A stretch of 64,000 nt of DNA from Raillietiella orientalis (lineage: Eukaryota), in contig JAYWIR010000034.1 of NCBI GenBank assembly GCA_036172245.1, positions 496,001-560,000 of the forward strand, in the 5' to 3' direction. The notes under the pieces were generated by a model. The model searched no databases, was not told the DNA's origin, and worked only from the letters and a program-made list of their open reading frames with translations. The position numbers and the translations under genes are program-made. Of this stretch, positions 3,001 through 45,704 are shown piece by piece (the stretch's first letter is position 1; each line of letters starts with the position of its first letter).

Positions 3001-4499
3001 GCACTAAATTCTTCGGTCTCGAATCTCCGTACTTACGGCACCATTCGGCTGTAAAGATTTTCCGTCTTTTCTTTTTTACCTGAAGATTATGGGCAAAACA
3101 CATGCCCTAGAAAAGGAAATCACCCTAGAAAAGAAAGATGAAAACTGTATTACGAGTTCTCTGAACGAGAATCGATAAGCATGCACTACTACATAAACAC
3201 ATCTTTCTGTTTGGCAGCAGCATCATGCATCTGAAGCCCGGGTAGGCATTCATTTTCCCTTTTCCTTTTGGAGTACTCTTGCTTTTGACGAACAGAGGTC
3301 TACAGACAAATCTGGACGATTCCGTGTCGAGAAAACTGAAGAAATGGAGCCCACTGATGCTGAAGAAAAGATATAAGAAACTGAGGAATCAGAAGTCATG
3401 TGCCATTTTCAGAGAACTGTGAGTTAGCATGCTGACCATGTAAAAATCTAATTATGAGTTCAGCGAGAACAGCGCCCAAGTTCACAAAAGAGATTCGAAA
3501 GAGGTAAAAGTCGTACGGTGATTTCAACCACTGATCATATTACTGGCATCAATGAGCTGAGAGCAGCTTTGGGAAAAGGCAGACAGAAGTTACGAACAGC
3601 CATTTAGAATGAGGAGGCACATCAACAAAGGGAGATTGTGAAGAAAAAGGAAAAGTAATCCTTTGTGTAACCTCTCACTTAGATATGCAAATGGTTTAAT
3701 TGCAGGTGTCAAAAACTAAGGGTTATCCAGCCTTCAATCTGCGCAGCTAAGATTATTGATTTCCATTAAAAGTCTTGTATCTCACACTTTCACTCTACAG
3801 AACAAAGCAAAGCAAAAAACTGTCCAAAAAAGCTATCCAGCATTCGTTCACTTATCAAGGATCTCTGCACCATCATCAGGAGACCACTCTCGCTGTGGTC
3901 CTCTATGAACTTTCTTCAATGGTCTTCCCAGTTTTAGCGGTTTTACTGGGTACAAAATGGAACGTTTGGAGACGTGTTGAAGAACCTATCCGAAAGGGTA
4001 TCCCGGCATCTTTGAATTTCCGAAAGACAATCACTTCAGGTAGGCAGCCAGGAAATGATAGACACTTCGACATCAACCCAGGTACGGAGCCTCGACAGTC
4101 CACAACTACGCAGTGACACAAGGACGATGTGACATCTTAACCAGCAACCAAGGAGCATGCGCTGCATCGTCGTAGTAACCTGAACTCGTCATCAAAAAAG
4201 GTACCTGTGACATCGCAACCACGGGAACTGCTCATATGAGAGCTCAGCAGCAGCGATCAAGAAGCCCACTGAAGGAAAAAAAACGAAATATTGAAAACAG
4301 ACACTTTCTTCACACCCTCAACAGAAACCAAGCGTGAGGATGTGCGCATCCAGTCGAGTGATTGGGACAAAAAGATGACAAGACGGCGATATTTCTTCAA
4401 TTCCAAAGGCGTAGGTCAAACAGCTCTTTCGTTCAACGCGCCGGCAAGCACATCTTACGAACAAGCGAACGAACGCAGAGCTATGCAAGTTGGTTATCA

Positions 4500-6763
4500 G
4501 AAGAAGACCACGGAGCTATGAACACGTGCGACACTCAAAATTCATTGAGCAGCCTCCGTGCCACAGCGGAAAAGTCCGATCCTCGAAAAGCGAATGCGTC
4601 CCACAAAACCTCCAAAGCTGCCTCAACAAGGTGGCGTCGGCCGCCTGCGCTGCAGACCGAGAATAGCTTCCCTCTTCCTTCAAGCGAAAAAAGCACTCAT
4701 CTCCCTTCTGACACCGCTGTCTCGGGATGGAAGCCGAGGAAGATACGTTAGGTGAGAACATCAGAGCGGAAATCTCGAACATGCGCAGCGGTCAACGCCG
4801 CTACCATGGCCTGTGCCACGGAAGACATCGCTCGCTCGCACGTCGCACCTCGAGCGTTCTGCAGTAAGCGCGCCGCGGGACGACCGTAACGACCAGCTGC
4901 AGCTACGGCGATCAGAAAAGGAACGACGACTCTGAAGACCTCGGCGCGAGCGAGGAATCCGCATCCCGTCTCCCGAACGCGTGATTCCCGACGTCGGGGA
5001 AGATCCAGAAGCAGCTTCCGAGGGATGCGAAACCACGCGGAACGGCGGAGCCGTCCTACTTCCGGGTGCAAAGCACCAAGACCAAAGACAAGCACCGGAA
5101 ACAAAACAAGAAGAGCAAAAAAGAAACGACCGGACAATCTAGAAGCGTTCAGCTGCTGCGCTCTCGGAGATTGGCACCGGACAGCGTCCGGAAGGTTAAG
5201 CCACCGCTAGGAGCACGGCGCTTCGTGGCAGGAGGCCGCGTCCGCTGCCTGCCAGGCGATCCGGCCTTTGCCTCGCACCTCCAGCAAGGAAGCGAGGATT
5301 CCGCTTCCTGCGCCGATCGCCAGCGAGGGGCTTTCAGCAGAGATCGGACGGACTGCAAACACGAAAGAGTCTTGCCAGAGGGAGCGCGCTCGTGCTCCCT
5401 ACCAGAACCCGTTCGTCTTCCTTCTGGGCTTTCCACGGCTGGGTGCCCAGGCTGTCAGTGAAGCTTCAAGCAACGTCATCGCCCGCTGGCGCGGCTGCGG
5501 CCGGTCTCGTCAGCGCGCCCTCTTTTCGGTGTCGCCTTCGGTGGACGAAACGGCGCGCCGGTTGCGTGACGCCTCGAGAGGGGACATGGAGCCTGGACGA
5601 GAGGAAGTGTGGAGTCTTCACGAAAGCCTGCCACCGGGCCGGGGAGGAAAAGACCGGAATCGGCATCGCTCGTCGAGTTGCCAAGAGATGCTGTGCAGCC
5701 AAGCTGCGAGAGAGCAGACGGGGCATGCGCTCCGGTGACGCTGGGTACAGGATGTCTCTGCCAGGTGTCGGGATCCAATGCAGCCACGGAAGCGGAGAAC
5801 TCGGAGGAGCGGCACGCCGCGAACGCAGCAGCTTCTTTTTGCACCAACGGGAGTCAGGAAGATCTCGACTTGCAACGAGGGGGACTCGGAGGTGGACGCA
5901 GGGCAAAGACGACTTCCGGACGAGATGTTGAGGAGCGAGCAGAAGACGGGAAGAAGTCGGCTGTAGAGAGAGGTGTTTACGGATGGAGGACACCCGGATT
6001 CACCGTCAGAAGGGTCGATCACTCGCTTCGCCCTACGGCTGAATTCCTCGCTGGCCCATCGCGCTCCCCGTAAAAACCTCTCCTGGGGTCACGCCGCCGC
6101 CTTCCGCACTCCGACGCGATGAAGTGACGCGGCTCGCATGCAGGCGGAGGAAAGTCGTGCGGCGGCCTCCGTCGAGCAGAGAAGCGGATGCCGGCATGAG
6201 CGGCGAGCCGGCGAGTCCTCTGGCAGGTCGCCTCTTCCAAGGCGGGATTCCCCCTTCTTGTTCCTTCCTTCCTTGTCGCAAAGGTCGCCTACTCGAGGAC
6301 GCCAGGAGTGCGAAGGGGAAAGGACGACGGGTGGCTGGCTTCCTTGGGGAATGGTTGACGCGTGCAGCGTGAGGGAAGTCTCTGAGACTCGGGAACGTTA
6401 GGACTGCTGCGGCACGTACCGGGACGAGATGCAAGCGAGGTTAGCGAGAACAAGGAAACCGACGCGTGGGGATCGTCTTGGAAACGGGCGGAGGCTTACC
6501 TCATCTGTTGGTTGTGTATGCGGCAAATGTCGTCGTAGTTGTGGTAGAACGCTTGGAAGAGGAGGAGGTTCTCCAGCCACTCGATGTGCACCTTGAAGTG
6601 CTTCCGGTCGTCCAGGTACAGACTTTCGTTCTTCATGAACTGCAATGCGAGCCATCTTTAGGGCGCTGCTGCCAGTCGACAGGATTCCGCCCCGAATGTT
6701 AGCCCGCCAGCGGATGCCGCGTTCCCCTTCGGCGCGACTTCGCGAGAGGATCGGAACGGGAAG
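4500..6763. repeat. Left arm of 2,264-bp inverted repeat (partner 59340-61603)
   Basis: All ORFs mirror those at 59.4-61.6 kb with coordinate sum 66103. Differences seen only at 4530, 5502, 5512, 5526 and 6756. Confidence 0.98.
6500..6639 (-). CDS. Coding exon 3 of the MATH-like gene FMKNESLYLDDRKHFKVHIEWLENLLLFQAFYHNYDDICRIHNQQM(R)
   Basis: Acceptor GCATTGCAG|TTC and donor ATGAG|GTAAGC. 140 nt, phase 0 in (matches exon 2), phase 2 out, no stops. YLDD..FKVHIEW resembles the last MATH strand. Strong codon bias (40/46 codons end in G/C). Not in the ORF track because it is short. Confidence 0.85.
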
Positions 6764-9220
6764 AGAACGTGTTCCGAGTCCCTGTAGGTGTTCATGCTGC
6801 CCCTCCTACTAGCCGCTCATCTCTCTCAAACTCGCATTTTCGTGACGCCTGGTCCACGCGAGTAGCTACTCGCATCGTTCTTTAACATGAAGCGGTGCCT
6901 GCAAGGCACCTCATGGAAGCTGAAGGCGGATATTCCCATGTTTAAGGGAATATGCGTCTTTCGTCTGCAGACGTAGAAGGTCAAGATAATCTGACACTTT
7001 TAGGTTTTCTGACGAGGCGAGTTTCGGAGGGTGTTCTGCTATTCGGACGAAACGAAATGAAAACTGACAGCATCACTCTCTCGCATCATCGGTTTCTGAT
7101 TCTTGCTCGGTCTTTTCGATTAACGCTCAACAGAGTCCAGAAAAGTTCTTTCTGAAGCAAATCCACCCTGCTACAAGGGAAACCCTTCACAGCTAGCACT
7201 TTTTCCGAGCATTGAGCAAGATTTCGTTCATTTTGGTTAACCGACGTCCATGGTGTAATCCTCACCGTTGTGTGAAAGTTTAAATTTTATATTCCTATTT
7301 ATATATTTCGTTTTTCACTGTGAGTCTCTAAAACCTTCAATGTGTTTTTTCCACGTAAGACTTCAAAACACGAACACGCACTTTTTTCCACATGTGCCTC
7401 AGCTGTGTTTTTCGCATCCCGAACGGATTAGCTGGACTTCATGTTGCTGTTCCCCTTCCTTTTTTCCTTTCAGATTGGCAGAAGCATCATCGGTTTTGTC
7501 ATTCTAAAAATAAAAAATTCTTTTCCTTCGAGCCCTTCCAGGTTTTGAAATTCATTCATCATCCTCCTACTAGCTGCATACTCCGAAAGGCGCGCGTTAA
7601 GATGCCTACTAGCTGACATTGATCCGAATGAAGGAAATTCGTACCGGTTCCCCAAGCGAAAGAGAGTATTGATCACTTCGGAGAATGGTGGAGCCGCAGC
7701 TTACAGAATACCGACTCCTGTAGCAGCATGGCATCAATACGAAGAGACTTTATTTCACTGAAGAAAAGAAAGACTCTCCCAACGCGTCCAAGCAACTTGT
7801 GCCTTTCCTCAGACAACTTTGATGCTACATCTCAAACACTAATAACGACTGGATTTCTGTACCGGTTCCTGCAAGATGCATGCACGCTGAGGCATCCCCA
7901 TGCATCCTGAATCTCTTCTCCAGTTCTGTCATCGAGATGCGAATGCCATGATCTCGTTGCCGATCAGCGCTCAGTGTGCGCTGTGAAAGACCTGGCGTCT
8001 CTTTGCAACCGCATCCTCTGCTGTTGCAAGGAGGCGCACAAAGAGCTGATGGTTCGTGTGTCGTCAAGGCAATCTTCGAAGCAGCGGGAAAGAAGAGCGA
8101 GAGTGACAGAAATCGGAAGGTTTGATCTCATCTCTCCACAGGTCGCACTCCTGGAACTTCCCGATCTTCCCGAATTTCCTTACTTTTGTAGACCAGCATC
8201 AAGCTCCAAAATTCCTATTGTTTCGACTTTACAAATCCCATGCAGCACTGTACGATACGGAAAAAGTTCACGGAGACATTGATTTTCTGCACTCAATGTG
8301 ATCCCATAGTAAAGTTGTTCTGCCCTCTCCTCCCTTCCTCTCTTCCTTTCTTTTCTCTTCGCGGAATTCCTGACTTCCTAGGAAGTTTACAACGTTTGGT
8401 TGTATAGACGCAATGTTTGGAGCAGGATGAATACAGAATTCCCAGGGTCATCGTTGACTTTCCAAGCTGAACTGACTCGAATTAACACAGATGGTTAGTT
8501 AACATCCTTCTTGTGGCTTCCGATTACTAAAAGGGTTCATTTTTATTGTGGTCTTTTTTTTACCAATGAGAAATGTTCGGGTCAGGGGCGGTTACCGGGA
8601 AATTTCCCATGCTGGTGTTTCCTACTTCTTCTCATGGCATCCTTTCAGCAAGCCTTTCTCCAAAAATTCCGCTAGCAGTCTTTCGCGTTGAGATAGGAGA
8701 AACTCCAGAGAGCACTTTGATCTCCTGGAATCATTAGGATGTGCATGTCTCACCATAATCCTGGTACCGGAGCCATGCATTAGAAGCGCGTTGAATACAA
8801 CAAATAAATTGATACGAGCACAATGGCGCACGCACATGCACGCGCAATGAGACGATTCCGAACGATCATTTCATGTGTTTTTCAAAATGCTTTTGACACC
8901 AAAGAAAACAAACTGAGATAAATCAATATGTACAGCTTTCCTCTTCCCCTCCCCCCCCCCCCCCTTCGAAAGGGAGTCCTCGTCGTTTCGGATATTTTCC
9001 CAGTTTGGCATTTCATTGGTTATTCAGACTGGTTTTTCTTCCAAATTCCCAGGTTCCCATAAATCTGATAAGAGATAAATAAACGAATACGAGAACATGC
9101 GTGATAAAGAGCGATCTATGAAACGAGTCACGCGCGACCACGTGTCCGCATAATGAAAACGGAGCTGCTGCACACTTGCGTCATGCAAATGATTTCATTC
9201 ATAACACAAATGGATTCTAC
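6640..9220 (-). other. Intron between coding exons 2 and 3 (2.6 kb, GT-AG, phase 0)
   Basis: GT at 9220-9219 and AG at 6641-6640 on the minus strand; junction reads SAE|FMK. Confidence 0.8.
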
Positions 9221-9374
9221 CTCTGCAGAGACAATGTCAGTTTCCATGATCACACCTTCGTCTACGTCATCCTGGGGATAGTACTTGCTGTAGCTAAGGT
9301 GCTTCGTCCTCACAGCATGCAGCCGGGAAGAATTCGGGTACCTCTTCAGTACGTATGCGTACCAATGTACGTGC
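9221..9374 (-). CDS. Coding exon 2 of the MATH-like gene (R)HVHWYAYVLKRYPNSSRLHAVRTKHLSYSKYYPQDDVDEGVIMETDIVSAE
   Basis: Acceptor TCTCGTTATTGCAG|G and donor GAG|GTAGAA. 154 nt = 1 nt completing the AG|G Arg codon of exon 1 plus 51 codons (phase 2 in, phase 0 out). Continues the third MATH-like repeat (PRNHLR-HVHWYAYVL). Confidence 0.85.
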
Positions 9375-11499
9375 CTGCAATAACGAGACACTAGATATTA
9401 AAGCACCACCGAATGACGTCCGCAGCTGCCGCTACTATAGTGCTCTAAGCGCGTTCTAAGGCTACAAGCTCTTCATGAAGCGGCCATGGGGATGTCTTGG
9501 AATGCAGGCTATGAACGAACCTCAAGTCTTGTAGAATCTCGCTGACCTTTGCAGAACATCTCGAGAAATATGAGGAAAACAGAACAAATCTTCTTCTGAA
9601 GGACATTCGCAGAAATGTGGATAGGCGAGTGAAGGAAAACACTTTCGGCACCAGAAGTCCGAATTAAAGAGACGTCAGGAAGATAAGGGATGAACTAAAG
9701 TCAAACTTTGGAAAGGAGCAGCGAGTCCTTTCTCTTACAGGAGAGGGAAAGGAATGACTGGAAACGAGGAAATCCTCAACACATCAAAGAAAAAATAAGG
9801 CGTAGCTCTTTTTTGATGGCCTCACCGAATGATGCCCACTCACGGACTCGAACCTGCGTTTCGATGCTGCGCTTATGCATTATTTGCATCGCATGGGATG
9901 TCACTGTACATCTCATCAAGCCGTCTGCTGGCCTCAATAACGTAAGTCAGTTTAACTTCTAGCAGTACCAGTTGAAAAAGCCGTCGTACATGGAGGCAGT
10001 TCCAGTTTTATCTCATGAGATCTAAAGTTTGTCTTGTGAACAAAAACTGCTCCAAAAATTGGCAATGCGTTCTACATTCTGCAGGTACTTTCTGGGAAAG
10101 CATTCCTTACACGTTTCTGTAGCTGCCACTCGACACATGCTTTGAATACAAATGCTGTGAGAGTTGCACGAATTTTCCTTGCAAACTCTTGCTGTTTGCA
10201 TCTCATGATTCATCATCCTGTCACTGCAGATTTCATGATCCAAAACACTGCAGATGGTGCAAGTAGGTTGATTGTACTTTACGTAGCATATGACACATTA
10301 TCAGGACATGTTTTAACGTAAGCAGGTACTCATTAAGCTGGAACATTCCAGATGCAGGACCACAACAGGATGTCAGCATCCTGGCACCTCTGTATCAAGA
10401 AAACATTCTTGCAGAGAAATCATCTTCTCTCAGTCCCTCGACTATGCCACACTTTGGCATCAGTTCCTTGAAATCCGCCAAAGATCGCCTGACATTCACC
10501 CTAACTGGAAATTTCCTTTTGAATTTTCTTGCAATAAAGAATCTGCAATCCTAAGGCTGATCTTGCACACCCAAAACTGAAGCTGTCTTTGCTGCATCTC
10601 AAGAGTCGGAGGTGAGTACCAATTTCTCTTCTTTTCGGTAGCATAGCATCCCGGATTGCAAGATTTCGTCCCCTACTAAGCAAGAGCTGTTCTTTCTTCA
10701 AAAAAAAAAAAAAGCGCATTTCTCTCATTTCCTGCATAGCATCTTTCCCCCCAGTGTCTTCCATATGTTGCCTCGTTAGATCGACAGCACCAATCACAAG
10801 CATCTGCGATGCAGAGCTGGGAGTACCGAGCCATGAGCAGCAGTCTTGAAAGGAAGCAGCTTTGCACTGCCTCCTGTCCTTTAAGGGAACTCAAACTCAT
10901 AGCCCTCGTCGACTCTTTGAGATCTTCGACCCTCTGCTGACTTGCAGCACGTCGTTTAAAACAAAGATTGTAAGACCGGGGGGAAGGACGGATTTGGTGA
11001 CTCCTTAATGCCCGCGTTTGGCGGGAAGTTTGGTAAGGTGGGCCAAGTTCCGAACAAAAAGTTCGAGTCTTCTAAAAGTATCGCGTTTTCTCGTTTTGAC
11101 GTTATTCTGTTTTTCCCTCAGGGGAAAAGAATCTTTTATCCTGATCCGTTTTCGAGATTCACTTCTTCAGCTGGAAGTAATCCTGCAGCCCTTCGTTCAT
11201 CAAGTAGTTCCCTTCCCTCTGTTTTCTGCAGCCTCTTGGGGACAAGAAAAGATCACCCGGACTCTTCCTCTCGGCCTTTCTCCGAAATCTCTATGGCGAC
11301 AACACCATCACAATCCCGTTGTTCATCACCATTTCAGATATGTTCTTTACTTCCCAGTGATCCATCTATTACATAGACAGGTGTTCAGATCTCATCTCAT
11401 CCAGCTTCGTCGTTTCTGGAAGAGGGCTGGTCTGCAACACCGCTTAAGAGCAGGGACGTTCCTTGTTGAGGTAGACGCTTTGTCAGGCGGCTCACCTCT

Positions 11500-11676
11500 T
11501 CCGAGTTCTGACTCTCCACAAAGTGCAAGAGGTTCTGGTTCTTCCAATCCACCTCGATAAGATTCAGTCTCTTCAAAGCTATGGACCTGGTATTGCCATC
11601 GTCCGTTTGGTGCTCGACGGTTCCAGTCGTAAATTCTCCTTACCAAATACAACGAAGAGGATTCAGGTTGAGAATC
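11500..11676 (-). pseudogene. Possible decayed chromodomain-coding fragment inside intron 1
   Basis: YLVRRIYDWNRRAPNGRWQYQVH..EEPEPLALC resembles the chromodomain pattern YxVExIxxxRxxxGxxxYxVKW..WEPEENLxC. Key Trp residues are missing in frame, and there are stops upstream. Confidence 0.3.
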
Positions 11677-13660
11677 CCAGTTCCTCTTTCAGTCTCTGAA
11701 AACGGGAGCTCCGAACGAAGAGACACAGATTGGGTCTGATGATGACTCAACGAATCGCTACTCCATCTGATTGTCCATTCTTGTTCTCGGACTTTTTTCT
11801 AATGTATCTGCGGAGTTTCAGAGTCTTCCTTCTAACCAAGAAGAAGGAGCTGCAGTCTATCCTCCGAGAACTGGCGTCGAATGTTCGGCACTGTTCAGGA
11901 CTGCCTCTCATCCTTCTCGCTCCCGGAGTGAACCGTGCAATGCAGTGGATTTCGGTGTCTTCCGGTGTTTTTTCCGCTTGTGTGCCGTAGCTTTGTTTCC
12001 GAAGGCTTGCAAAGTCTCGGGACGGACTTTTTCGGATTCACGGCGTTTGCATTCGCTGGTCCAAAACACCAGGAACACCTTCAGCCTCGCAAAGCAAAGC
12101 CGCAAAAACAATCAGCATGACACCGATCCGTCAGCCTATGAGGAATTGGGAGCCAATGGAACCAACCAAACAACTCGCTGCTTATCACTGGCTTCCTCCG
12201 CTCTTGACTTCCTTGACATCAAGCATTTGATGGATGGGTACCAATATCCCTTTCTCACTCGCCTTCTTGCATCAGAATTTGAGAAAAAAAATAAATAATT
12301 CGTCTGCCGTGGGTCTGATCAGAGATGCAAGTCCGACCTCTGCGTTTGTTTAATTAATTAATTCCTTAGATTAATTCCTTTTCCCTCCGCAATTCCGCTC
12401 TCACTCTCCTGCTGAGCTTTCCGTCTTTGTAATCAAGTGACCGACCTTGCCCTCGTGAAATCAGCACCTACAGAATTCCAAACTCCAATGTGGAAGCACC
12501 TTTTCCGGAGGGGGTGTAACCTGGATGTTTTTTTTTTTTTTTTGCTCTCGTAAAAAATCCGACCCAGTTTCGTTTTCGTAGGTTTCCTCTGAGTGAGATG
12601 TACGGAAGTAATCTCTTAGAGGTTTTCTTTTAGAAATCTTCTGCGAAGAACGCCTGATAATCTGTTGACCTGATTGACCGTGCGCATCGGCAATATCTGA
12701 TTCCTCTCCATACACGAAACTCCAACCTTGCATTCCTGATCGATGATGGCAAGTGGGACGACGACTTCTCGGATCTCGGATCTTCTACGGGAAGACAGCC
12801 TTCTTGGATCTGAATATTTCGCTTTTCTTATCTTTCCGAAACTGACGAAGCATCAGTGTTTTAATTTTCTCTTGCGGGAACATTTGCATCCTATCCGATG
12901 ATCTTTTTGCTCTCAGGATGCATCTTGGGCAAGGGAAGGAAGGATCCAAGGACTCTCTCTGGACAAACACGAATGGGTTACACTGTGGATCCCCATTGCA
13001 TTCAAGAACCTGCCGTCAGCACACTTGAAGAAATCTGGAAATTCAAGCTTCAAGCATGAAGAAACTTGCCTGTAGAATACTTCAGGCTACTTCCTGCTCA
13101 TGCGGCCTCACCGTGCCCCCTCATCCCGAGAAATACGTTAGAAAAAGGGATCAATATTGCAAGCATGCACCAAACTGAAACCAAACTCAGCATCCGTTCT
13201 GCTGACACGGGTGGCGATGCTAAATAAAATTTGGTTTCAAACTTGGATGCTGCTTGGATGGACCCTGAGAACCGGGGACCAGAGAGCACTGGTGACACAA
13301 GAAAGAGAGTGCAGTGAGCTGGACGGGTGTCAAGTTAAGATTTCGGGTTTGTTCATTGGTACTTTTGAATTTTTCTGGTGACTGTAGCCAGAGAAAAGTA
13401 GTCATAAAACAAATTATGTGGTTTCTGCACCTGTAACGGGTAAGTATGTGGCATTTACAAGTGTAGTCTTGTCTCCATGGGACTGAAGATTCTCGGGTCA
13501 CAAAGCAGATCCTACCGCAAGTCTAAAGCCTTCCCCCCACTCAGTTCTCTTTAATTGTCATCGTGATTTCAATTTTTGGCAATCCCCTGCACTGTCGCCC
13601 TACCTTAACGCTCCTATCCCCTCTCACACTCACTTTTCATACCTATTTCATCATTATGAT

Positions 13661-13695
13661 TGATCTTCTTCCTGATCTTAAGATCAAGAAGATCA
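13661..13695. repeat. Nested quasi-palindrome
   Basis: TGATCTTCT-tcc-TGATCTT|AAGATCA-AGAAGATCA: 16 pairs with one 3-nt bulge. Confidence 0.85.
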
Positions 13696-15343
13696 CCGGT
13701 TCGGAGTCATGAGTATTTTAACGAAACACAAAATGAATCACGTGGTTAACTTGGAGCTAACCATGCTCTGCCCCCTCCCTGCTTTTTTAATCCCCTTTCG
13801 AAGCCTCCTGACACTCTCGGAAATCCTAATGTGGTCCTCAGGATTCGTGTCCCCATATGCATACTAGGGAGAGGCACACATGCAGCACCTCCGACACACA
13901 TGCATGTGCGCAAATTCCTGAGGGAAAGGATGGACATCTGGGCACTCTTCTTGTACTTTCCTATTTGCATCAGGATTTGGAACTTCCACCTTATAGTGGA
14001 AAAGAGAATGCACCTTATGGGTGCATTCTCTTTTTCATGGGACCTTCCAAAGGCTTTATGAAAAAATTGGAGAACCGTTTCTACAACACGCACGGTTGAC
14101 CTTCCCTCTGGGAGAACAACAAGCTGCCGCCAATTCTGAAAAGCGGACCAAGACCAAAGAGACGAAAATAACAGCGGAACGAAAGAAGTCACGTGTTTCT
14201 GGCTGCTTGGGGAGTCTCGCACCAAACGGGACTGCAGCCCTCCTTCCAAAACGAAACTCTGGAAGCGGACTGCTCCCACCGAGTCGAAGACTTGGCAGGT
14301 TTCGGTTCGTATAGAGCAGATGAAACTTCCACCAGCTATCGAGCTTCTGGAGAGCAAGAAGGAAGAAAACATCCCAGCTTTCAAGCAAAATGAGGTAGTC
14401 GCTTTGTGCTGATGCAGCCCTCGCCAAGCAAAAGGAAAAGAACGGTTCGTTCAACTGACCCCTTGCGAGAAAGAATCTCTGCTCTTCGGCGTGACAAGCC
14501 TGAAACCGGAAAATTCCTCTTTTGTTATTCCACAGGCGCAGCAGTCGTTTGCCACAAGCAGAAATCGAAGCCCTGCGGTTCGAACTGGCCATCCGGTTTG
14601 CAGTCTGCAACCCTGGATCCACTGCATGCTTCTTTCGACAAATTAACGGTTCCTTCCTTGAATCCTTTGGCTTAAGCAACGGTGCTCAGGAGAATTCCGG
14701 GAAGGAATCGGTGTCAGCAAAAACCTAACGCGGATGGACCCCTTTTGGGTGCGACTTCAAAGAGCCTAGGAGACTACCGAGAGGATCGGAAAGAGAGTCT
14801 AAACTCCTTCTCCTTCTCCAAGAAAAGAAGTTTGGCGCTTCGCCTCTTTCCCTTCCACTCGCCTCTAAAAGTCGGTTCCTTGCTTTTTTCCTGTTTCTAC
14901 GCAATAGACAGTCCAAGGCCGGAACCAGCACCTCAGCGAAGATCTCTAAAAAATCTTTCTTGGGATCCAGGAAATGCTCGCCGCTTCATCCACCTGCCTT
15001 CCTCTTGAGGCGCACTCTGCAGTCTTCGTCTGGTTTTCCTCCGAAGGATTTGCTCTTCTGCTCCCGCGCTCCTTTTCCAGCTTCATAAATCCCAGCTCGA
15101 GGAGCTCCTTGTATCGGTCCAATACATGGGGCTGCTGTGGTCTATCGTAAAGCATCACAGGGAAAAGAAGAAATCATCGCAAGAACGAGTCAAAAGACAG
15201 AGCTGAGCTAGTCAGCAACAGAGTAGGTCGAGAGACTGGAGACTCGAAAGGAGCAAGGAAGTAGGCTGCTGAGAGGGAGCTCTTGGGTGGAGATTCGACG
15301 GAAAGAGAGAGAAAACTCTGCTGAGGCACGTGCAGAGTGCAGA

Positions 15344-15376
15344 GTTCATTGAGACACTCAAAGTGTCTCAATGAAC
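15344..15376. repeat. Perfect 15-bp inverted repeat with 3-nt loop
   Basis: GTTCATTGAGACACT-CAA-AGTGTCTCAATGAAC. Confidence 0.95.
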
Positions 15377-18300
15377 AGAAGTGGAGTGTAGAAGAAGGAA
15401 GCAGAGACCTAGGAGCAAGTGAAGAACTTCGTGAGGAGGGGGTCGGATGCAAAATCCCAAGCGGAAGGCTTTGTACGCGGAAGGAGAACTGACCACACGG
15501 TGGCCTCACAGGGGTGAAGTCGACAGCAAGCGTGGTACGGAAGAAAAGGCTCGTTGCCCGAGAGATGCGACCACACTTCGGTGTCCGATCCCGAGAGAAT
15601 GAAGGGACAGTTCGTCAATCTGCAATAAACAGGGTGGGATGGGAAACCCAGAATGAACCTACGCTCCCTCTTCCGTATGCTCCCTTGAGGGACCTCCGAT
15701 TGGCTACCAGCATGGCTTTGGAAGGAAAGCTCCAAACAGCCGAAGATGGGAAGCTTCCCGTCAAGGGCTTCCCATATAATGAGCAAAGGTACAAGAATAC
15801 GATGAATCTGCAAGCCTCCTTTCCCACTGCTTCATATCCTCTTTGTTTCTTCCGTGCATGGGAGTGCAGGTGACAAATCCCAAAGAGGCTGCACTCAAGA
15901 GATCCGGAGAAGATCACGAAGAGAGTCCTCCTGAAGTACGTTGGAAAAAGGGACGGGTACATGTGAAGCTCTCGAGATGGAAGGAGAGGTCCTCGCTCAG
16001 CTTGGCGGGAGTGAACTAGTTCTTTTTTCACCTGCACTCGGTGAACCCGGTTTCCAGGGCTCTTGCAGTTCACTGGGCCTTTCGCGTCCGCCTTCCATTC
16101 ACCTCTGCTGAGAAGCACCCATTCCCTTCGGGCTGAGAGCCTCTCAAAACTGGGATTCCTTCTGACAGACTCTCACAGCATGGGAACAGAATTAGCGTTT
16201 TCACAAATGCCATCCTTCTTTCTGTCTTGCTGCCACGCCCCCGGTTTGCCTTTTTCTCAATACGTCATGGATGCTATGGCAGTGCGAGGAGGATAAAGGT
16301 TACAAGGAGGGGACTGCTCTCCGTCCCCTCGTCAGCGTTCAGAAGACTTCGATTTCCTTGATGACAGTACCATCTCATACAGGGGTCATATGGAGTCAAT
16401 GGGGTTAGATGAATGGTAACGGCATTGAGAAGGAACTGTTTCTCGTGTCATTGCTTGACATGACAGTGACAAATCCCGACGAAGAGCCAAGCACTCCTCT
16501 AGGTTTCGGAGTATCTGTCTTTCAGATGAGTGAAAGAGACGGAAGGCTGCTGCCCTCGTGAGGAGAAAGGAGGCTCCAAAGACATGTTTCGTGCTTGCGA
16601 GTTTAGGAAGACTCGCCTCTCCGGCCTCTTTTGAGAAGGGTACCAATAGAGACCTAGGACGAAGGCAGCCTTCAGAAGCACCTCCTTGATCGTCGGAGGA
16701 AGTATCTTCCGACGCAGGATTCTTTAATGGGAAACTCCAGAAGTGTTCTTTGAGAGGAAGGTGGCCCTGGAGTTTCCCTGGGCAAGGAGTAAATAGACCT
16801 TTTATTTAAAAGGCTATGAGACTTCTCTGAATCTTGCAGAAGGGAGGTAAAAGAGAAAGGGGCTTTCGTGCCGTTTCAGAGAGAGCAGGTCTCTGAGAAA
16901 AGAGTGAGAACTAGAGAAACTGTAATCTAGAGAGAGTTCCCTGATATGTTCTGCGGTATCCCTTTGTTCTTCAGAGCATATCTTAGTTCCCTTGCTTGAG
17001 GTTCTGTCGCTCGTGGAGTAGCCTACTTGAAGACAACGGAAACCATGTCGACGGTTCTTTCAATCTTTTTTGTTTGGAAGCAATGCTTCCGTCATTTCTG
17101 CTACCTCTGTTCTTGAACACTGCTCACTATCTCTTTCTCTCTCTTTGCTTGGAGCTTTTCGCATCATGGAGCTCGTTGCTTCTAGCATCAGCAACTTTCT
17201 TGCTCAAGAGGAACGGCCGCAACCGCTGGGAAGGTCACTACATCGCCAGTGGTCCATTATTGCGAGCAAGGATGCCAGTATCAGAAACATCAAGAAAATT
17301 TTTCGTGTTAAGTGTTTTCTGTATTTGGAATATCCTGAGATGCTCCAGAGTCTCTCGTCAGAAAGAGCCAGGACTGAGCTCTTTGAAGAGAAGGATCCTC
17401 GGGAAAAAAAATGGAACTGAGTTCGTTCTGCAACTATCTCTCAAGGAGGAAGTTTCCTGGAAAGCATCTTGTGAAACCTCTCAGCTATCGATCTCCTCGT
17501 GTTTCCCCAAGATGTTGGCTTGGTTTGGATTGAGTGGGATTACAGAGTGAAACTTATTTCATCTTCCAGTTCAACTTTTACTTTCCAAAGATCGAATGCT
17601 AGCGGGGCAAGAGAGGCAGCCGAAAACGGGGCTTTCCAGCGTGCTGGCTTGAGGAGACGATGCGTGGGGACCGACTTTGGCCAGAGGGACATTCAGTGGC
17701 TCCAGTGCAAGCAGCCCTTCCTTTCGTTCTGAGAATCAGATTCTCTTCTCACTCTGAGTTCTCCGCAACAGCTTCCGAAGGAGTTTTCTTTCTTTTCGGT
17801 GTAGCTTGGCCGACGAAAAAGCACATTCGCGTACAGAGCATGCGGATGTCGATCGCATTCTTCGAACCGGAGCGAAAGGAAATGCTCATACGCTCAAGGA
17901 TGGAATCTCTTGAGACAAGCGAGCTTCTCCTTTTGATGAACGATATTTAGACAATCACAGCTTCCCCTGAGCAGCGTGGTTTTCGTTGCTTCACACACTT
18001 AAGGGAAAAAAAGTGGGGGAGAGGTGGCATCGGCAGCCATAAGGAGAACCGATCGATCCACTTTGCGAGTGAGAAACACCAGCCTCTCCTCTCCGTGAGA
18101 TTTCTATTTGATTCCGTGATTCGAAATTTACGAAGATTCCTCATTAGCGCTTCCCCCAGCGATGATGCGAGCGATTTCGATTTTCCATCGAACTGGAAGG
18201 AGCGGTCGGATAAAAGAACTCGCACAAAACGCGTTCAACTTGGAATCGAGAACACCGCAGACAAGAAGGACCGTTCTCTCTCCTTCTCGTCCAAGAAGAC

Positions 18301-21300
18301 CAGCAGGTCTTCACTCTCTCTGCTGGTGTGCTTTGTTTCCGGTACCGACGAGAGTACGTTCGCTCTGTTTCCAGTAGGGCATTCCGTATACAGGAAAGTC
18401 CACACTGCTTCGTCTGCAGCGCACTTTTGTCTGCACAAGGAAACACTCTAGCGGTAAGACCTGCAGGTAAGAGATGCAAAACTTCTCTCTCATTGCACAC
18501 GCTGCAAACTGCGTCACCAGTAGTTGTTAAGAAAGCGAGAGCTGCGGGGAAGGAAAGCCATGAGATTTAGAATTCGGCACATCAATGGAGAGAGTGCATG
18601 CAAGCATAGTACGATGATCCGTGACGATTGCATCACCTACACAGTTCACCTGGCAATTATCAAAAAGTACGAGGGGGACAGCTCTAAAAAGTAGGGAGGG
18701 GGGGAGATTCGTTCATTCCTAAGTTTCCTTAGAAAAGAGAATTCATCTCGATCCTGATCGAAAAGATTTAACACCATCTAAGATCTCCAAGCGGATCTCA
18801 CAACATCGCATATACGTTTAGCGTAAGTGCTTTTGAAAGCGTCGCACTCTCATCATGCTTCGTTGCCATAGAGATCCTCAATTTCTCACCTACTCCGATG
18901 AGAACGAGCAACCCACTGGCAGATTTGTGAGTGCAGCAGTTCTTCGGATGCATGCTGTCGGAAACCGGACATCATTTGTTGCGCCGTCTGACCTTAGACT
19001 TTGATCTTAGCCAAAAGCTGACCTTAGATGTCCACCCCAAGCTGACTTTAGCAGCTCCGGTGCACTTAGTTTTCAGAAATGGAGGCCATTTTCGAATGCT
19101 TTTGTCGCTCTTCCATTACAGAGCAGAAGAGCGTCGAAAATCAATAGCGATTTGCGATCAAAGGAGGCTTTCACGGGTCTACGCCGTACTGGTGCCGGTA
19201 TTCGCATCATCTTCAATTATCCACTCACTGCACTGTTTCTCAAAACATCCGAACCAGATCTGTAGTTACCCTCGGATCTATAGTGGCTTTAAAATGGCGA
19301 TCACTCGTGTTTTCTTCTCACACAAAGCGAGTGGAGAAATTATTTTGTTTCCATGGATCAGCGCTGGAGATATTTCATTCCCACTTACAGCATCCTGTGG
19401 CTCCACATCTGCGAAGCTAGGTTTTATGATGAGCATCCTCAGCTGCTGCTTACCATTCGCTAGTTGAGTGTTTCGTGCTAATACGGATTCATTCCTGCTC
19501 AGACTTATGCATCTCTACGAAAACTGCTTCAAGGTCTTTCGCCTCCGGTAATAGTAATCCTCACCTGTGTTATCGTGATTCGCAATGAACGAGCACTTTA
19601 ATATGACTGTCGCACACTTTTCTTCTTGTAATCTTGCTTGCAACCCTTCCTTCGAATCCATGCTGCGGACTTGCTTTCCTTTTGCACTGGAGCTCAGCAT
19701 TTATCCTCTCATCATTGACCGATTCGCATTGATCTTCCCATTTTCCTACTGAATTTCTTTTCTTCCCAGCTGGAGAGAAGCATTTGAGAGAAATCTGCTC
19801 CTAGAAACACGTGGTTACTTTTCCACCGTGCCAGGAACAAAGAGCATGGATTTATAGTGCATCGCTTCATGTTGCACAAATAAAATTCTGCTCACTGCAC
19901 TCTTATGCCTCATAACAACCTTTTGCACTTACAGGAAAGACTGTTCATTTATTCACGCCTTCGTTTTCATGTTTTGTTTCCATAGGATGCTTCATACCAT
20001 GAACAGAAAAGAAAACGATGTCAGAACGGCTGCGTTATGAAAGAAGACAAAATCATCTGATGGATATCAACAAAATGCACTCCTTTTGCATTGAGGATCT
20101 ATCCTCCTTTTTCCTTCCAGATCACAACAGAATATCGGAGATGAAAAGTTTTTCCTAATCAAGTTTTTCCTCGGGTCTTCCCAATCATTCGATTTTTTTT
20201 TCATATGGGAAATGGGCGAGGAAATTTGAAACTCCTGGGTTGACGAATCCAACCCAAGTTGCTGGCGTAAGGCGGGAGTATCTTCCAAGCGCGAATAAAG
20301 TGTGTTGAAGCTACCTTGGATGTAACGGTAAAGTTTCTTCTCGTAGCGACCAAGGGAGATGCGGGCATGTCTTCGAATTTATCTTTGACCCTTGATTAAC
20401 CTTTGTGGAAAAATCGAAAAGGAAAAATGCCTCGCTCGTTCTGATTTATTCAAACAACTACATGCTACGAGTAACTGTGAAGGCTTGTTGTACAAAGATT
20501 TTCAGCTGTTTATTCGATCACAGTTCGCGTAGGCAAAGCTCTTTGTAGCAAACACTGAATTTTAGAGGGAGAAGGAAGCAGACTATGCGCAGTGTTCTTC
20601 GCTGCAATGATTAACCATCCCTTGTCAACGATGCAGAATTTTCGTCAAGATAAACTATGTGGTCTGTTGGTATTCTGCATCGACCACAGTGCATGGTGAA
20701 GATAAAGATCGAGTCTTCAGACGTGCACTGGATGATGCCGATGCATGCTTCCGCTGAGTGTGCTCAGAAAAAAGAAATGTTATGCAATATTCCCATCAAA
20801 TCCCTTTCTTCTCACGTTGTCATCGGTGAAACATGGGTCAGCGATTTCTGAGCTTGGCGATGACATTCCCAAGATGTAGTACGACCACATAAGCTAGCTG
20901 TTATGTTCTTCCACATCAGACTATTCCGTAGACGCATATCTTTCACTGCTCAGCAGTTGTGAACATATCCAGTCGCATCACCAAGCAGAAGGAGATTTGA
21001 AGCTGACTTGACATAATGAACCATCTACCGCGCAGATAAGCTGGGCTACTCTGATTTGATGGAATCGAGTTTGCTCTCGAGTCCAATGGAAAATGCTGAG
21101 TCAGGGATGCATTTTTACAAATCTCTGATGAAGGTTTCAGAATAGAAATGGCCGCTGCAATGTGGAAAGATCCCGCACCCATCGTGAAAGGTGAACTGTA
21201 AACTTTGCTGCTGCCAAAAAAAATGAAAAATAAGTAACATCCCTTACGAGGTCTCACATTGCATATTGGAAAACTGCAATCTGCTTCAGTGTGTTACTTT

Positions 21301-24300
21301 GATTGCAGCGGCCGTAGATGGAGCCTCAGCACCTCTTTCACCTTTATCTGTCACGAGGTGTTCATTTAATCCCAAAAAGAATGAGGTGGATTAAATGTCG
21401 AACTCAAAAAATGTAATCTCTGTTCCTATGCTGTTCCTAAGCGGCAGTAAAAACTGATCGACAGATTGCTTGTCAGCAAATTCCATATGGTTATTATTTC
21501 TTGCTATTATTCCATATGCTAAAGTAAACTACCTTCCTGATATGAGGAAGCTATAATAGTTTATTGAGGTAGGGCCCATATCCCATTGTGAGTAGATGCA
21601 CAAGAGAACTTTAGTTTCTTAGGACAGCAAATTGATTCCTAGCACCACTTAAAATGGGCTCCATACCTTTGAACGTTATGACGATTCAAGCAGATGTCAA
21701 ACCGTGACTTCATAGAAGTGTGACCAAGATTGAATTTCCTCACTAGCAAGCTGAATCGAAACATCCCACAAAACATCTCAGCCTGTCATCATGCATCACG
21801 TGGGTGCGGAAAGGAGCTAAAATATTGCTTGAGATTGAGACTTTGATTAAAATAGTTGTTCCTTTAAATGTCCCTATCCTCTTCCGAGGATGGAGGGCTG
21901 AAATGCTCACTTGATGGTGAGAAAAGGACTTGTGTTTCAAGAGTCTGTCAACAGCGCCTTTGTTCTCACACCAGCATCTAACACCAGTGAATGCCGTAAG
22001 AGATCATGGAACTTTTCACACGGTTGACGCACTTTTCTTCACACCTCTTATAACTTGATCTTGAGCTTGCATCAGTCATCTTCGGAGTTAATTTTTCTGG
22101 TAACTATGACATTTTCATTCTGGAATAGAGACTTCCTCTTCTAAGGCTAGTAATGACCGCGCCACGCGCCAACTTTACTGCTACTGCTACCAAGGGTGAT
22201 CATTTGTGATCCATATGGATTTGCAAGTTTTGCCTGCCGGTCACTCACAGAATCTTTACAATAGTTGGAAACTCGGGAAGTAAACTCAGTCTTATTCTTC
22301 AAGAGCTGCTTTGAAATGCTCCTTTGAAATTCTGTACATGCTCTCAAGGGTACACTTATCTGATCGAGACACCGTGATCAAGGAAGTCCTAGGCAGATAA
22401 CGTCGCCAAGAAATACACGTGCATATGAAACAGTAAAATAAGAAGTAGCAAGCATTTTTAAATAAATAAAAATCCAATTTGCAGATGCAGGAATTCATGG
22501 AAGCAACGTGATCACTGATTCAAATTCAGCACTTTAAGCGTCCACGAAACAGAGCACCAACTTTCAAAAATACTTTTTCTTGTTTTCAATCTTCGATGGG
22601 AAGTAGAAGTGAGGTTGTTTTCTTCGACACAACTGCGATCAAAGCAAACACTGAGTAGAAATCCCAAAGCGTTTTCATGGCACCTACGACGAAGTTCGAG
22701 CTCTCAGCAGAAAATCAACAGAAAGGAACCAGAAAGGCACAAATACCAGAAAGAGGGAGATACTTGTCATGCCCCGTAATTCGCAAAGGCCATTGAAACA
22801 GGAGCAGGAAGTTTTTAGGAAGCAGTTCTTGCTTCCTGGAAACCTCCTGCAAGTTGAGAAAAGGTCACGACTCCGTGAGTGAAGTTGACATCCGTGAATA
22901 GGGGTCTTGCATTGATGCAGATCACTCTCTATGCGAAGTCGCTCGCCTGCAGGATCGAAGATGTTCAGGAACGATGGAAACAGGGAATGCATTTTGGAAT
23001 CGTTGCAAGCACGATCTTACGAGAGTTCATCAAGTGAGGAGGTTTGCGCACGGTCAAGCATCCCGGAGGTCGCGTTATCTTATCACTCACGCATTCGAGC
23101 AAAGAGGATTGTAAAGAGGCCAGTGTCAGTCGGGTCATCGGACTTGTTTTCTTCTGTTCAGGAAGAATTCTGCCTCCATTCCAACAGTCTGCGCAATTCG
23201 TAAGAGACAAATGAACGCACATCTTGATGGTTTGGAGACTGGCAGCAGCTTAGAATGGAACTCACGACAGCAAACATGTTTGGGCTTTTGGAAAGAATAT
23301 GACTCTCGTGAAATGGTGGAGCAAAAGGAAAGTGAAAACAACTCCAGCAAGATTTGTAGCTTTCCTATTTTTTGCCCGCGTGTCTCTGAGAGGCCAAAAT
23401 ATCTGTGATCACTTTAGGTACTCGGAGATCAACGCAGAGAGTAAGTTGCGAAAGTTTTCTCTCAAAAATCTGATCCGAAAGACGGAAGAGCGGGTTTTTG
23501 TTTTGATCAAAATGAAATAAAAAGTCAAATTCGAGTTTTCTGTTTTTTCGCCAATGTAATAGAGCAGAAAACCGTTAGAAGAGAATGAGAGCATCAGCAG
23601 CACCTCTCTCGTCCCACGAAACATTCAGTCTTAGATGTGGACCGAACGCAACAGAAGCAGAAATGTGATGGTTCGTTGCGCTGACATTGAGAAATGGAGG
23701 CTGCAGCACAAACGGTTTAAGAAGACCTTCTGTTGCAATCGTTAATTTCTACTCCAGGGACTCCGAAACTGCTGATTTCTTCTGCCAGGATGTTCTGATA
23801 ATGATTCCAGTCTCCCAGAGAAACAACTTTCCAGAATGCATTAACCATAGGAGGGGTTGACAGCAAGGTCACAAGAGCAACGTGGACAATACACAGGTTT
23901 TTTGTCCAGTTCCAAAGGTGGATGATGAGCTCGTCAGCTCGGATGCATCTCAGAGTAGATCAAAAGGGTGGAAATAGGAGGCATTCTGCCTTATTTATTG
24001 AACTCAATTGATTCCTATTCCAGGGCTTGATTGCAATCAATTGCCTTCTTGAATAAAGGATCGCCTTTGAAGACGATTCGAGTTATTAGAGAAACAAACA
24101 TTGCGGCCTTATGGAGTGTGGAGAACCGAATTAGCACTGTCTTTTAGCTCGAAAAACACTTTGCTATTTTTACAATGGGGTGAAAATGTGAAAGTTGGCG
24201 GAACTGTTTGGGGGAAAAATCCTGGTGAGTGTAAACCTCGAAGGAAAAGGAAGGAATCGAGCCCACAAATGCATTTCGTGGAACTGGGTCTACGGTGCCT

Positions 24301-27907: not shown

Positions 27908-27950
27908 CTATCAGAGTGTAAGGCTTCTAGAACAAACAAAAGAAAATGCA
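27908..27950 (-). promoter_or_regulatory. Splice acceptor and short 5' UTR before the start codon, implying upstream non-coding exon(s)
   Basis: Minus strand TGCATTTTCTTTTGTTTGTTCTAG|AAGCCTTACACTCTGATAG-ATG: strong polypyrimidine tract, AG at 27928-27927. Confidence 0.7.
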
Positions 27951-39671: not shown

Positions 39672-39699
39672 AGTAGTAGTAGTAATAGTAGTAAAGTAG
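39672..39699. repeat. Short imperfect (AGT)n microsatellite
   Basis: AGTAGTAGTAGTAATAGTAGTAAAGTAG; source of the YYYYYY run in the 39559-39744 ORF. Confidence 0.85.
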
Positions 39700-45656: not shown

Positions 45657-45704
45657 ATGCGCATCCAAGGGCTCGTCTATTCTCATGCGCCCTTGGATGC
45701 GCAT
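45657..45704. repeat. Perfect 16-bp inverted repeat with 16-nt loop
   Basis: ATGCGCATCCAAGGGC (45657-45672) / GCCCTTGGATGCGCAT (45689-45704). Confidence 0.95.

What the first reader, a model, noticed from the sequence alone, without database searches (positions are those of the whole stretch)
4500..6763. Arms are GC-enriched exactly where they are identical: signature of GC-biased arm-to-arm gene conversion
Seen: sampled 60-nt lines inside the arm are 53-72% GC (4561: 32/60, 4861: 38/60, 5461: 43/60, 6001: 37/60, 6541: 33/60), peaking mid-arm. Flanking lines are 27-40% (3661: 21/60, 7261: 16/60, 59101: 24/60, 61681: 22/60). Exon 3 has GC3 of 40/46 (87%), against 32/51 (63%) for exon 2 and 30/50 (60%) for the first 50 codons of exon 1. 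Most of the arm is intron, so protein selection does not explain this. Established: ectopic gene conversion in palindromes is often GC-biased. Inference: long-running recombination between the arms, not a fresh duplication.
Basis: partly seen in the sequence, partly recalled or inferred. Interest (0 to 1): 0.8.

Follow-up and report, generated by a model that had tools for sequence, protein, structure and literature searches.

The report
GC-rich inverted repeat holding an exon
A 2.3-kb piece of an arthropod gene (one exon plus intron) is present twice in opposite orientation 52 kb apart, and both near-identical copies are far richer in G and C than everything around them, which fits copy-to-copy repair that favours G and C, though no close relative was available to prove it.

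Summary
Two inverted arms (4500-6779 and 59324-61603) differ at 9 of 2280 positions. Five of the nine lie in the last 24 nt, so the near-identical core is 4500-6755 (4 differences). The arms are 61% GC and their flanks 44%. A blind change-point fit puts the GC block within 7-151 nt of all four arm ends.

Arm A carries exon 3 (6500-6639, minus strand) of an arthropod MATH-domain gene with very long introns. Arm B is an orphan inverted copy 31 kb upstream of exon 1. Ninety-four percent of the arm is intron.

No transposon hallmark was found. Distant relatives show no GC island at this exon and no exon-3 GC3 excess. The arm edges are far more diverged than the core.

These results fit an old duplication kept uniform by GC-biased arm-to-arm conversion. 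But the 17-point shift is 3-10 times larger than in primate palindromes. A simple model needs 0.2-0.9 neutral substitutions per site of continuous conversion.

No genome, close relative or population data could be obtained, so substitutions could not be polarised. A segment that was already GC-rich when it was duplicated remains a serious rival.

The parts
4500..6779 (.). Arm A of the inverted repeat. The near-identical core is 4500-6755. GC is 0.608. It consists of the last 140 nt of intron 2, exon 3, and the first 2000 nt of intron 3 of the MATH-domain gene.
59324..61603 (.). Arm B, the reverse complement of arm A. GC is 0.609. It lies about 31 kb upstream of exon 1, and no other exon of the gene lies beside it.
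6500..6639 (-). Exon 3 (46 codons plus 2 nt), with acceptor cag| and donor |gtaagc. GC1/GC2/GC3 are 0.52/0.13/0.87. It is the only strongly periodic ORF in the arm.
59464..59603 (+). Orphan inverted copy of exon 3 in arm B. It is identical to exon 3, since none of the 9 mismatches falls inside it.
9221..9374 (-). Exon 2 (1 nt plus 51 codons), single copy, GC3 32/51.
26946..27907 (-). Exon 1 (320 codons plus 2 nt) with the MATH domain, single copy, GC3 176/320.
6780..59323 (.). Spacer of 52,544 nt, GC 0.460. It contains exons 1 and 2 and presumably the gene's promoter.
4402..4499 (.). Outer margin of arm A. It keeps decayed homology to 61610-61664. The robust part is 4438-4463 against 61635-61610 (24/26 identical). 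It is separated from the core by 36 nt in A and 6 nt in B.
61604..61664 (.). Outer margin of arm B, the partner of 4402-4463. It includes a tandem duplication of an 11-nt unit next to the core.
6756..6779 (.). Inner diverged edge: 5 mismatches in 24 nt against 59324-59347. Any homology beyond it is borderline (3 of 300 shuffles reach the score).
5502..5526 (.). Cluster of 3 of the 4 core differences (C/G, A/G, T/C; arm A base first).

Best explanation
An internal 2.3-kb piece of an arthropod MATH-domain gene was duplicated in inverted orientation to a site about 52 kb away, upstream of the gene. The piece holds the end of intron 2, exon 3 and the first 2 kb of intron 3. Since then the two copies have exchanged sequence by non-crossover (gene-conversion) repair. 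This keeps the core 99.8% identical while the edges, which conversion tracts reach less often, have drifted apart.

Heteroduplex repair favours G:C over A:T. Each new A/T-to-G/C change is therefore more likely to be copied to the other arm than erased, and each G/C-to-A/T change more likely to be erased. Over a long time this raised GC in intron and synonymous sites alike, and only within the arms.

Shown: the repeat, its identity profile, the co-extension of the GC block with the arms, the gene model, the absence of transposon hallmarks, and the absence of the island in distant relatives. Inferred: that conversion rather than recent copying explains the identity, that the conversion is GC-biased in this lineage, and that the bias rather than the prior composition produced the GC block.
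For: 1. The GC block coincides with the arms at all four ends (offsets 51, 151, 7 and 53 nt) in a fit that did not use the repeat. Arms are 0.608/0.609 and flanks 0.442/0.440. None of 2630 non-arm windows is as GC-rich.

2. The enrichment is regional and not driven by coding. Ninety-four percent of the arm is intron: the arm parts of introns 3 and 2 are 0.614 and 0.629, while the same introns outside the arm are 0.42-0.45. Exon 3 shares the enrichment only at silent sites: GC3 is 40/46, GC2 is 0.13, and fourfold sites are 10/10 against 77/144.

3. Divergence is very uneven. The core has 4/2256 differences, the inner edge 5/24 (P = 1e-8), and the outer margin 2/26 (P = 0.002) plus an indel and about 60 nt of decayed homology that 0 of 300 shuffles reach. 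A homogenised core with escaping edges would give this pattern.

4. Arm A cannot be a transposon insertion. Its exon is the gene's own exon 3, in order and in phase between exon 2 and the missing exon 4. No TE domain was found in 16 arm ORFs, and no terminal repeats were found.

5. In the 14 of 20 relatives' loci with at least 40 upstream codons, exon-3 GC3 minus upstream GC3 ranges from -0.22 to +0.16. Here it is +0.31. No locus with an intron after exon 3 has a comparable GC island there.

6. A two-arm model with the human-like bias of 0.70 on a 0.44 background predicts an equilibrium GC of 0.647, close to the arm's middle value of 0.625. Primate X palindromes have an estimated equilibrium of 60.9% (PMC8981503, passages).

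7. CpG observed/expected is 1.05-1.21 in the arms against 0.84 for the window, as expected if G/C-to-A/T changes are disfavoured.
Against: No substitution could be polarised. No genome, no close relative and no population data were available. The relatives used are distant, so they say little about the state just before the duplication.

The shift of 17 points compares with 1.8 points in human Y palindrome P6 and about 5 points in primate X palindromes. In the X palindromes, simulated biased conversion over 29 million years added only 0.7-0.9 points, and the authors allow for arms that were GC-rich at formation.

The model needs 0.2 neutral substitutions per site under complete bias and 0.86 under a bias of 0.70. 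That is a long life for 2.3-kb arms 52 kb apart.

Exon-3 GC3 of 0.87 (95% CI 0.74-0.95) needs a bias of at least about 0.84 at equilibrium. That is more than the introns suggest.

The mid-arm peak is weak (P = 0.06-0.09 without the exon). Mutations clustered at the edges can also arise during error-prone replicative duplication (PMC4352052, passages). A single-copy stretch at 42-53 kb is also GC-raised.
Confidence: 0.5

Rival explanations
1. The segment around exon 3 was already GC-rich before it was copied, for example because it was a stable allelic recombination hotspot or for some other local cause. Arm B is a fairly recent inverted copy of that island, dropped into ordinary 44% GC DNA. 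The high identity then reflects youth or a single recent conversion event, and the GC block owes nothing to arm-to-arm exchange.
For: The core differs at only 4 of 2256 sites, which a young copy explains without further assumptions. For arm B, the match between the GC block and the arm is automatic under this view. Arm A's outer flank declines gradually over about 600 nt (0.49, 0.47, 0.46, 0.48, 0.49, 0.43 in 100-nt bins), while arm B's drops at once (0.44, 0.38, 0.42, 0.35). On the inner side, arm A's GC block runs 151 nt past the arm end. Both suggest a native shoulder at the source copy. The gBGC model needs a very long time. The X-palindrome paper itself allows for arms that were GC-rich at formation. 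Edge mutations can be made during error-prone replicative duplication. GC-raised single-copy DNA exists in this window.
Against: At arm A, both duplication breakpoints would have to fall within 51 and 151 nt of the edges of a pre-existing island. The shoulder is within about one sd of the background. The edges show real but strongly diverged homology, which a clean young copy does not predict. No GC island and no exon-3 GC3 excess is seen at this exon in any of the relatives fetched, though these are distant.
Confidence: 0.28
2. Both arms are copies of, or were overwritten by, a third GC-rich sequence elsewhere in the genome. This could be a paralogous gene fragment in a GC-rich region or a multi-copy element that captured exon 3. 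The arms would then be GC-rich because the donor is.
For: The arm is compositionally foreign to the window: GC 0.61, CpG observed/expected 1.05-1.21. Its exon is the window's most strongly periodic, GC3-rich ORF. The three clustered differences at 5502-5526 could be a short patch copied from another copy. The MATH-domain family has several members in some arthropods, for example several Hyalella records on one 188-kb contig. Copy number in the genome could not be checked.
Against: Exon 3 in arm A sits in order and in phase in its own gene. The arm has no terminal inverted or direct repeats. The printed junctions show no evident target-site duplication; this was by inspection only and was not tested. 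No TE protein domain was found. No third partial copy exists in the 64-kb window. Replacing 2 kb of intron from a paralogue would need intron homology that old paralogues lack (inference).
Confidence: 0.12
3. One arm is an assembly artefact, for example a mis-join of haplotypes at an inversion breakpoint, so the genome carries only one copy.
For: No reads could be laid on the junctions. The one run found holds only a few identical 151-nt pieces and none in the arm.
Against: The arms differ at 9 sites. They have four distinct unique flanks and diverged edges with an indel. An artefact would not by itself make the copied segment GC-rich.
Confidence: 0.04

Closest known systems
Primate X-chromosome palindromes with GC-biased arm-to-arm conversion (Jackson et al. 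2021, PMC8981503; passages read)
   Same: Both have inverted arms more than 99% identical around a unique spacer. In both, arms are more GC-rich than flanks even after genes are masked. The estimated equilibrium GC in those arms (60.9%) is close to the level seen here (61%).
   Different: Those arms are large, lie on a sex chromosome and carry whole genes. Their shift is about 5 points (46.3% vs 41.2%) and was proven with six-way alignments across species. Here the arms are 2.3 kb and hold one exon plus intron of an arthropod gene, the spacer is 52 kb, the shift is 17 points, and no outgroup was available.
Human Y palindrome P6 (Hallast et al. 2013, PMC3723533; passages read)
   Same: Conversion between arms is GC-biased. 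Conversion tracts have a mean minimum length of about 2 kb, similar to the whole arm here. Rare crossovers invert the spacer.
   Different: GC in the P6 arms is 38.8% against 37.0% in the spacer (1.8 points). The arms are about 110 kb. The evidence came from 378 chromosomes and ape outgroups.
Elevated GC in other conversion-homogenised multi-copy sequences: ribosomal arrays, histone families and human segmental duplications. Known here only as cited in the Discussion of PMC8981503; the original papers were not read.
   Same: Copies kept alike by ectopic conversion become GC-rich, including at silent sites.
   Different: Those are multi-copy families or large duplications. Here there are two small copies, one of which is an orphan gene fragment.

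Membership tests
Inverted repeat (palindrome) homogenised by arm-to-arm gene conversion | Two inverted arms with more than 99% identity around a unique spacer | tested here: met
   2280-nt arms, 99.6% identical overall and 99.8% in the core 4500-6755, with a 52,544-nt spacer that shows no other self-similarity to the arms.
Inverted repeat (palindrome) homogenised by arm-to-arm gene conversion | Duplication older than the arm-to-arm divergence (orthologous repeat in other species, or unconverted parts much more diverged) | tested here: inconclusive
   The edges are far more diverged than the core: 5/24 and 2/26 plus an indel, against 4/2256. But the edges are short and could be junction-associated mutations. 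No orthologous locus from a close relative could be obtained.
GC-biased gene conversion between arms | GC higher in arms than in flanks, not explained by coding sequence | tested here: met
   Arms 0.608/0.609 against flanks 0.442/0.440. The intron-only part of the arm is 0.614.
GC-biased gene conversion between arms | Excess of A/T-to-G/C over G/C-to-A/T replacements in arms relative to flanks, polarised with an outgroup or seen in pedigrees or populations | not testable with these tools
   No genome is held. One run holds 0.06 of the sampled words and nothing in the arm. Relatives' loci are too distant for intron alignment.
Transposable element | Terminal inverted or long terminal repeats and target-site duplication at the ends of the copy | tested here: not met
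   No terminal repeats were found in 4300-7000; the longest internal pairs are 16-20 nt. The four junctions printed show no evident shared short duplication; this was by inspection only.
Transposable element | Encodes transposase, reverse transcriptase or another TE protein | tested here: not met
   None of 16 arm ORFs reaches a Pfam cut-off. One chance-level match (UL135) scored 16.6 bits against a cut-off of 27.
Transposable element | Many copies in the genome | not testable with these tools
   No genome is held. There are only two copies in the 64-kb window.
Arthropod MATH-domain protein family (the gene that holds exon 3) | N-terminal MATH domain and the conserved C-terminal block containing EW, LLFQ and YDD (invariant or near-invariant columns of alignment A1) | tested here: met
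   Exon 1 scores 22.3 bits on PF00917 (cut-off 21.2) and 23.9 bits on PF22486 (below its cut-off of 32). BLASTP of exon 1 to a 609-aa damselfly protein gives E = 2e-82. Exon 3 has 53 hits at E <= 1e-3, best 2e-10, with E20, W21, L27, F28, Y32, Y35, D36, D37, R40, Q45 and M46 invariant in 21 sequences.

The most novel reading that the evidence does not exclude
The two 2.3-kb arms have been exchanging sequence for at least 0.3-0.9 neutral substitutions per site and now sit at or near the equilibrium set by biased repair. This would be the largest palindrome-linked GC shift on record (17 points), in an arthropod and in arms that are 94% intron. The locus would then measure the conversion bias of this lineage directly (about 0.66-0.75). 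It would also imply that the orphan copy of exon 3 is kept by selection, for example as a repair template for the exon, since a crossover between the arms would invert exons 1-2 away from the 3' end of the gene.
Probability: 0.2. Interest if true: 0.6.

Novelty: new member of a known kind. Interest (0 to 1): 0.4.

Why it matters
GC-biased conversion is usually inferred from genome-wide correlations. Small, clean cases, where a sharply bounded duplicated segment can be compared with its own flanks inside one gene, are rare outside primate sex chromosomes. If confirmed with a close relative, this locus would show how far the process can push base composition: intron from 44% to 61% and silent sites to 87%. 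It would also give a direct estimate of the bias in an arthropod lineage, a group in which, from my own recollection and no call, the strength of the bias differs between lineages. If instead the segment was GC-rich before duplication, the finding is an ordinary partial gene duplication.

Tried and rejected
- Whole genome of the window: none is held, so copy number and paralogues could not be checked.
- Sequencing runs: one run was listed, with a 0.06 share of words and no RNA holder. When laid at 80% likeness it gave a few identical 151-nt pieces outside the arm and short unlike pieces, and nothing on 4003-6670. It supports neither presence, depth, variants nor expression.
- Word-indexed protein search with exon 3, longer proteins: no candidate. 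The exhaustive HMMER search then found the family.
- PDB sequence search with exon 3: only chance-level rows, E = 1.7. Pfam on exon 3: RLL at E = 0.13, below the cut-off; rejected.
- Exon 4 (the conserved coiled segment that follows exon 3 in relatives): no convincing hit on the minus strand at 1-6499 (downstream of exon 3) or on the plus strand beyond arm B. The best window hits, E = 0.02 and weaker, lie elsewhere or look like chance.
- Rfam: 0 matches in the window. Tandem repeats: one 15-nt array at 52963-53007 and none in the arms.
- Pfam on 147 stop-to-stop ORFs of the window (25 + 31 + 91): only the MATH domain of exon 1 passes.
- The outer margin as a dispersed repeat: the 18-nt core occurs only at the two margins, plus an overlapping 3-mismatch match that reflects the 11-nt tandem duplication in B. 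The 200-nt margins find nothing else in the window. Rejected within this window.
- Vertebrate-type CpG island: the window is not CpG-depleted overall (observed/expected 0.84), so retention of CpG alone cannot give a 17-point GC rise (inference).
- Earlier notes of this scan: none for this genome or for look-alike sequence.
Full report
**What is there**

The window holds a single long repeat, an inverted pair at 4500-6779 and 59324-61603 with 52,544 nt between the arms. The tool prints '100%', but blastn gives 99.605%. A base-by-base comparison gives 9 mismatches and no indel, at 4530; 5502, 5512, 5526; and 6756, 6764, 6768, 6772, 6774.

Five of the nine mismatches lie in the last 24 nt. The near-identical core is therefore 4500-6755, with 4 differences in 2256 nt.

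Beyond the outer end the two flanks still resemble each other. A 26-nt stretch (4438-4463 against 61635-61610) is 24/26 identical (E = 2e-4). It is embedded in about 60 nt of weaker similarity; the local alignment scores 24, against a shuffle mean of 10.8 and maximum of 15.5, and 0 of 300 shuffles reach it. This margin is separated from the core by 36 nt in A and 6 nt in B. Its 18-nt core occurs nowhere else in the window.

On the inner side, similarity beyond 6779 is borderline (3 of 300 shuffles reach the score). Apart from the arms, the window's only other self-similarity is a 172-nt direct pair (90% identical) and a 37-nt pair, all within 45-48 kb.

**The composition claim**

Arm A is 0.608 GC against 0.442 in 2280 nt on each side. 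Arm B is 0.609 against 0.440 (P = 5e-38 and 1e-39).

None of 2630 non-arm windows of arm length reaches the arm's GC; their mean is 0.459, sd 0.043 and maximum 0.575. A two-change-point likelihood fit that ignores the repeat places the GC block at 4551-6930 and 59331-61550. That is 51, 151, 7 and 53 nt from the arm ends. 'GC-enriched exactly where identical' is therefore a fair description.

Two qualifications apply. First, the mid-arm peak is weak. The quarters are 0.591, 0.623, 0.628 and 0.589 (P = 0.09). The outer 300+300 nt against the middle give 0.560 vs 0.625 (P = 0.006), or 0.576 vs 0.625 (P = 0.06) without the exon. Second, single-copy DNA at 42-53 kb is also GC-raised (0.528), though with a lower CpG observed/expected of 0.68-0.91 against 1.05-1.21 in the arms.

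**The gene**

The only strongly periodic ORF in the arm, and the most periodic in the whole window, lies at 6499-6657 on the minus strand (GC1/2/3 = 0.51/0.19/0.85). An exhaustive HMMER search gave 53 hits at E <= 1e-3, the best at 2e-10. The longer hits carry an N-terminal MATH domain. The named ones are arthropod proteins: an ostracod, a damselfly, house-dust mites, the salmon louse, amphipods and a lac insect.

The window's one long ORF (26903-27907, minus strand, 335 aa) is the N-terminal part of the same family. It matches a 609-aa damselfly protein at BLASTP E = 2e-82 and scores 22.3 bits on PF00917 against a cut-off of 21.2.

tblastn and the splice sites give this model:
- exon 1: 26946-27907
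- exon 2: 9221-9374
- exon 3: 6500-6639, all on the minus strand.

Exon 3 is 40/46, exon 2 is 32/51, and the first 50 codons of exon 1 are 30/50. The whole of exon 1 is 176/320. Exon 3 against exons 1+2 gives Fisher P = 2.6e-5, and fourfold sites are 10/10 against 77/144.

The next exon, conserved in relatives, is not in the window, so intron 3 exceeds 6.5 kb. Arm A thus consists of the last 140 nt of intron 2, exon 3 and the first 2000 nt of intron 3. Arm B is an orphan inverted copy about 31 kb upstream of exon 1, with no other exon of the family near it.

The best database identity to exon 1 is 51%, so no close relative is on record. No other Pfam family passes in 147 ORFs scanned.

Transposon. 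Arm A's exon is the gene's own exon 3, in order and in phase, so arm A is not an insertion. Sixteen arm ORFs have no TE domain, and the arm has no terminal inverted or direct repeats. Copy number in the genome could not be tested because no genome is held.

Relatives. A scan of metagenome contigs returned 20 loci that encode the exon at 43-62% identity. In the 14 loci with at least 40 aligned upstream codons, exon-3 GC3 minus upstream GC3 ranges from -0.22 to +0.16; here it is +0.31. In the loci where an intron follows the exon, the next 1 kb or less is 0.35-0.49 GC against locus averages of 0.29-0.50, with the largest excess +0.10.

The island is therefore not a general property of this gene. 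But these relatives are far too distant to give the ancestral state in this lineage.

**Identity profile**

Divergence is 4/2256 in the core, 5/24 at the inner edge (Fisher P = 1e-8) and 2/26 plus an indel at the outer margin (P = 0.002). Nineteen identities in 24 is not chance (P about 1e-6 at 30% background identity). This is what a homogenised core with escaping edges looks like, and it argues against a clean fresh copy. Replicative duplication mechanisms are, however, reported to be error-prone (PMC4352052, passages), so the short edges are not conclusive.

**Magnitude and time**

Published benchmarks are much smaller. Human Y palindrome P6 has 38.8% GC in the arms and 37.0% in the spacer (PMC3723533, passages). 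Primate X palindromes have 46.3% against 41.2%, with an estimated equilibrium of 60.9%. Simulations there add only 0.7-0.9 points in 29 million years, and the authors allow for arms that were GC-rich at formation (PMC8981503, passages).

I used a simple two-arm model in which each new difference is resolved toward G/C with probability b. On a 0.44 background, b = 0.70 gives an equilibrium of 0.647, close to the arm's middle value of 0.625. Reaching 0.608 takes 0.86 neutral substitutions per site at b = 0.70, 0.32 at b = 0.85, and 0.20 even with complete bias.

Exon-3 GC3 of 0.87 (95% CI 0.74-0.95) needs b of about 0.84 at equilibrium. That is more than the introns suggest, unless this exon started above the gene's mean.

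The reading therefore requires an old, continuously converting repeat. This is possible in a fast-evolving arthropod, but it is demanding for 2.3-kb arms 52 kb apart.

**Verdict**

The main rival (about 0.28) is that the segment was GC-rich before it was copied. For this rival speak a slight GC shoulder on arm A's flanks only and the time problem. Against it speaks the need for both breakpoints at arm A to fall within 51-151 nt of the edges of an existing island. A third GC-rich donor copy (about 0.12) and an assembly error (about 0.04) cannot be excluded without the genome.

By inference only, a crossover between the arms would invert exons 1-2 and leave them facing arm B. The gene's 3' end would then be on the wrong side, so only non-crossover exchange should be tolerated.

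It is a lead, not support, and was not tested here.

Noticed in passing
window 42000-53000: This single-copy stretch has raised GC (0.528 overall, up to 0.596 per kb) but a lower CpG observed/expected (0.68-0.91) and GpC observed/expected than the arms. It holds a 172-nt direct repeat pair at 45060-45231 and 47932-48100 (90% identical, 2.9 kb apart). No Pfam family was found in its ORFs. Its nature is unknown; it may be an old element.
   Followed up: partly
window 1-27907, minus strand: The MATH-domain gene has very long introns here: intron 1 is about 17.6 kb, intron 2 about 2.6 kb and intron 3 more than 6.5 kb. In the relatives' loci fetched, the corresponding introns are tens of bases to about 3 kb (for example L017-L020 and L012).
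   Followed up: partly
window 61604-61627: Next to the outer end of arm B an 11-nt unit is tandemly duplicated. Arm A has 36 unrelated bases at the same place. This indel separates the identical core from the diverged margin and may mark where conversion tracts stop.
   Followed up: partly
window 52963-53007 and 8950-8965: There is a short 15-nt tandem array rich in C runs (3.1 copies) and a run of about 14 G on the minus strand in intron 2. These are the only low-complexity features noted.
   Followed up: no
loci L002-L005 and L015: In some relatives the block that corresponds to exon 3 is continuous with the following coding sequence. In L003/L004, which are genomic contigs with an upstream intron, it is also continuous with exon 2. 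The introns flanking exon 3 are therefore not universal in the family.
   Followed up: no
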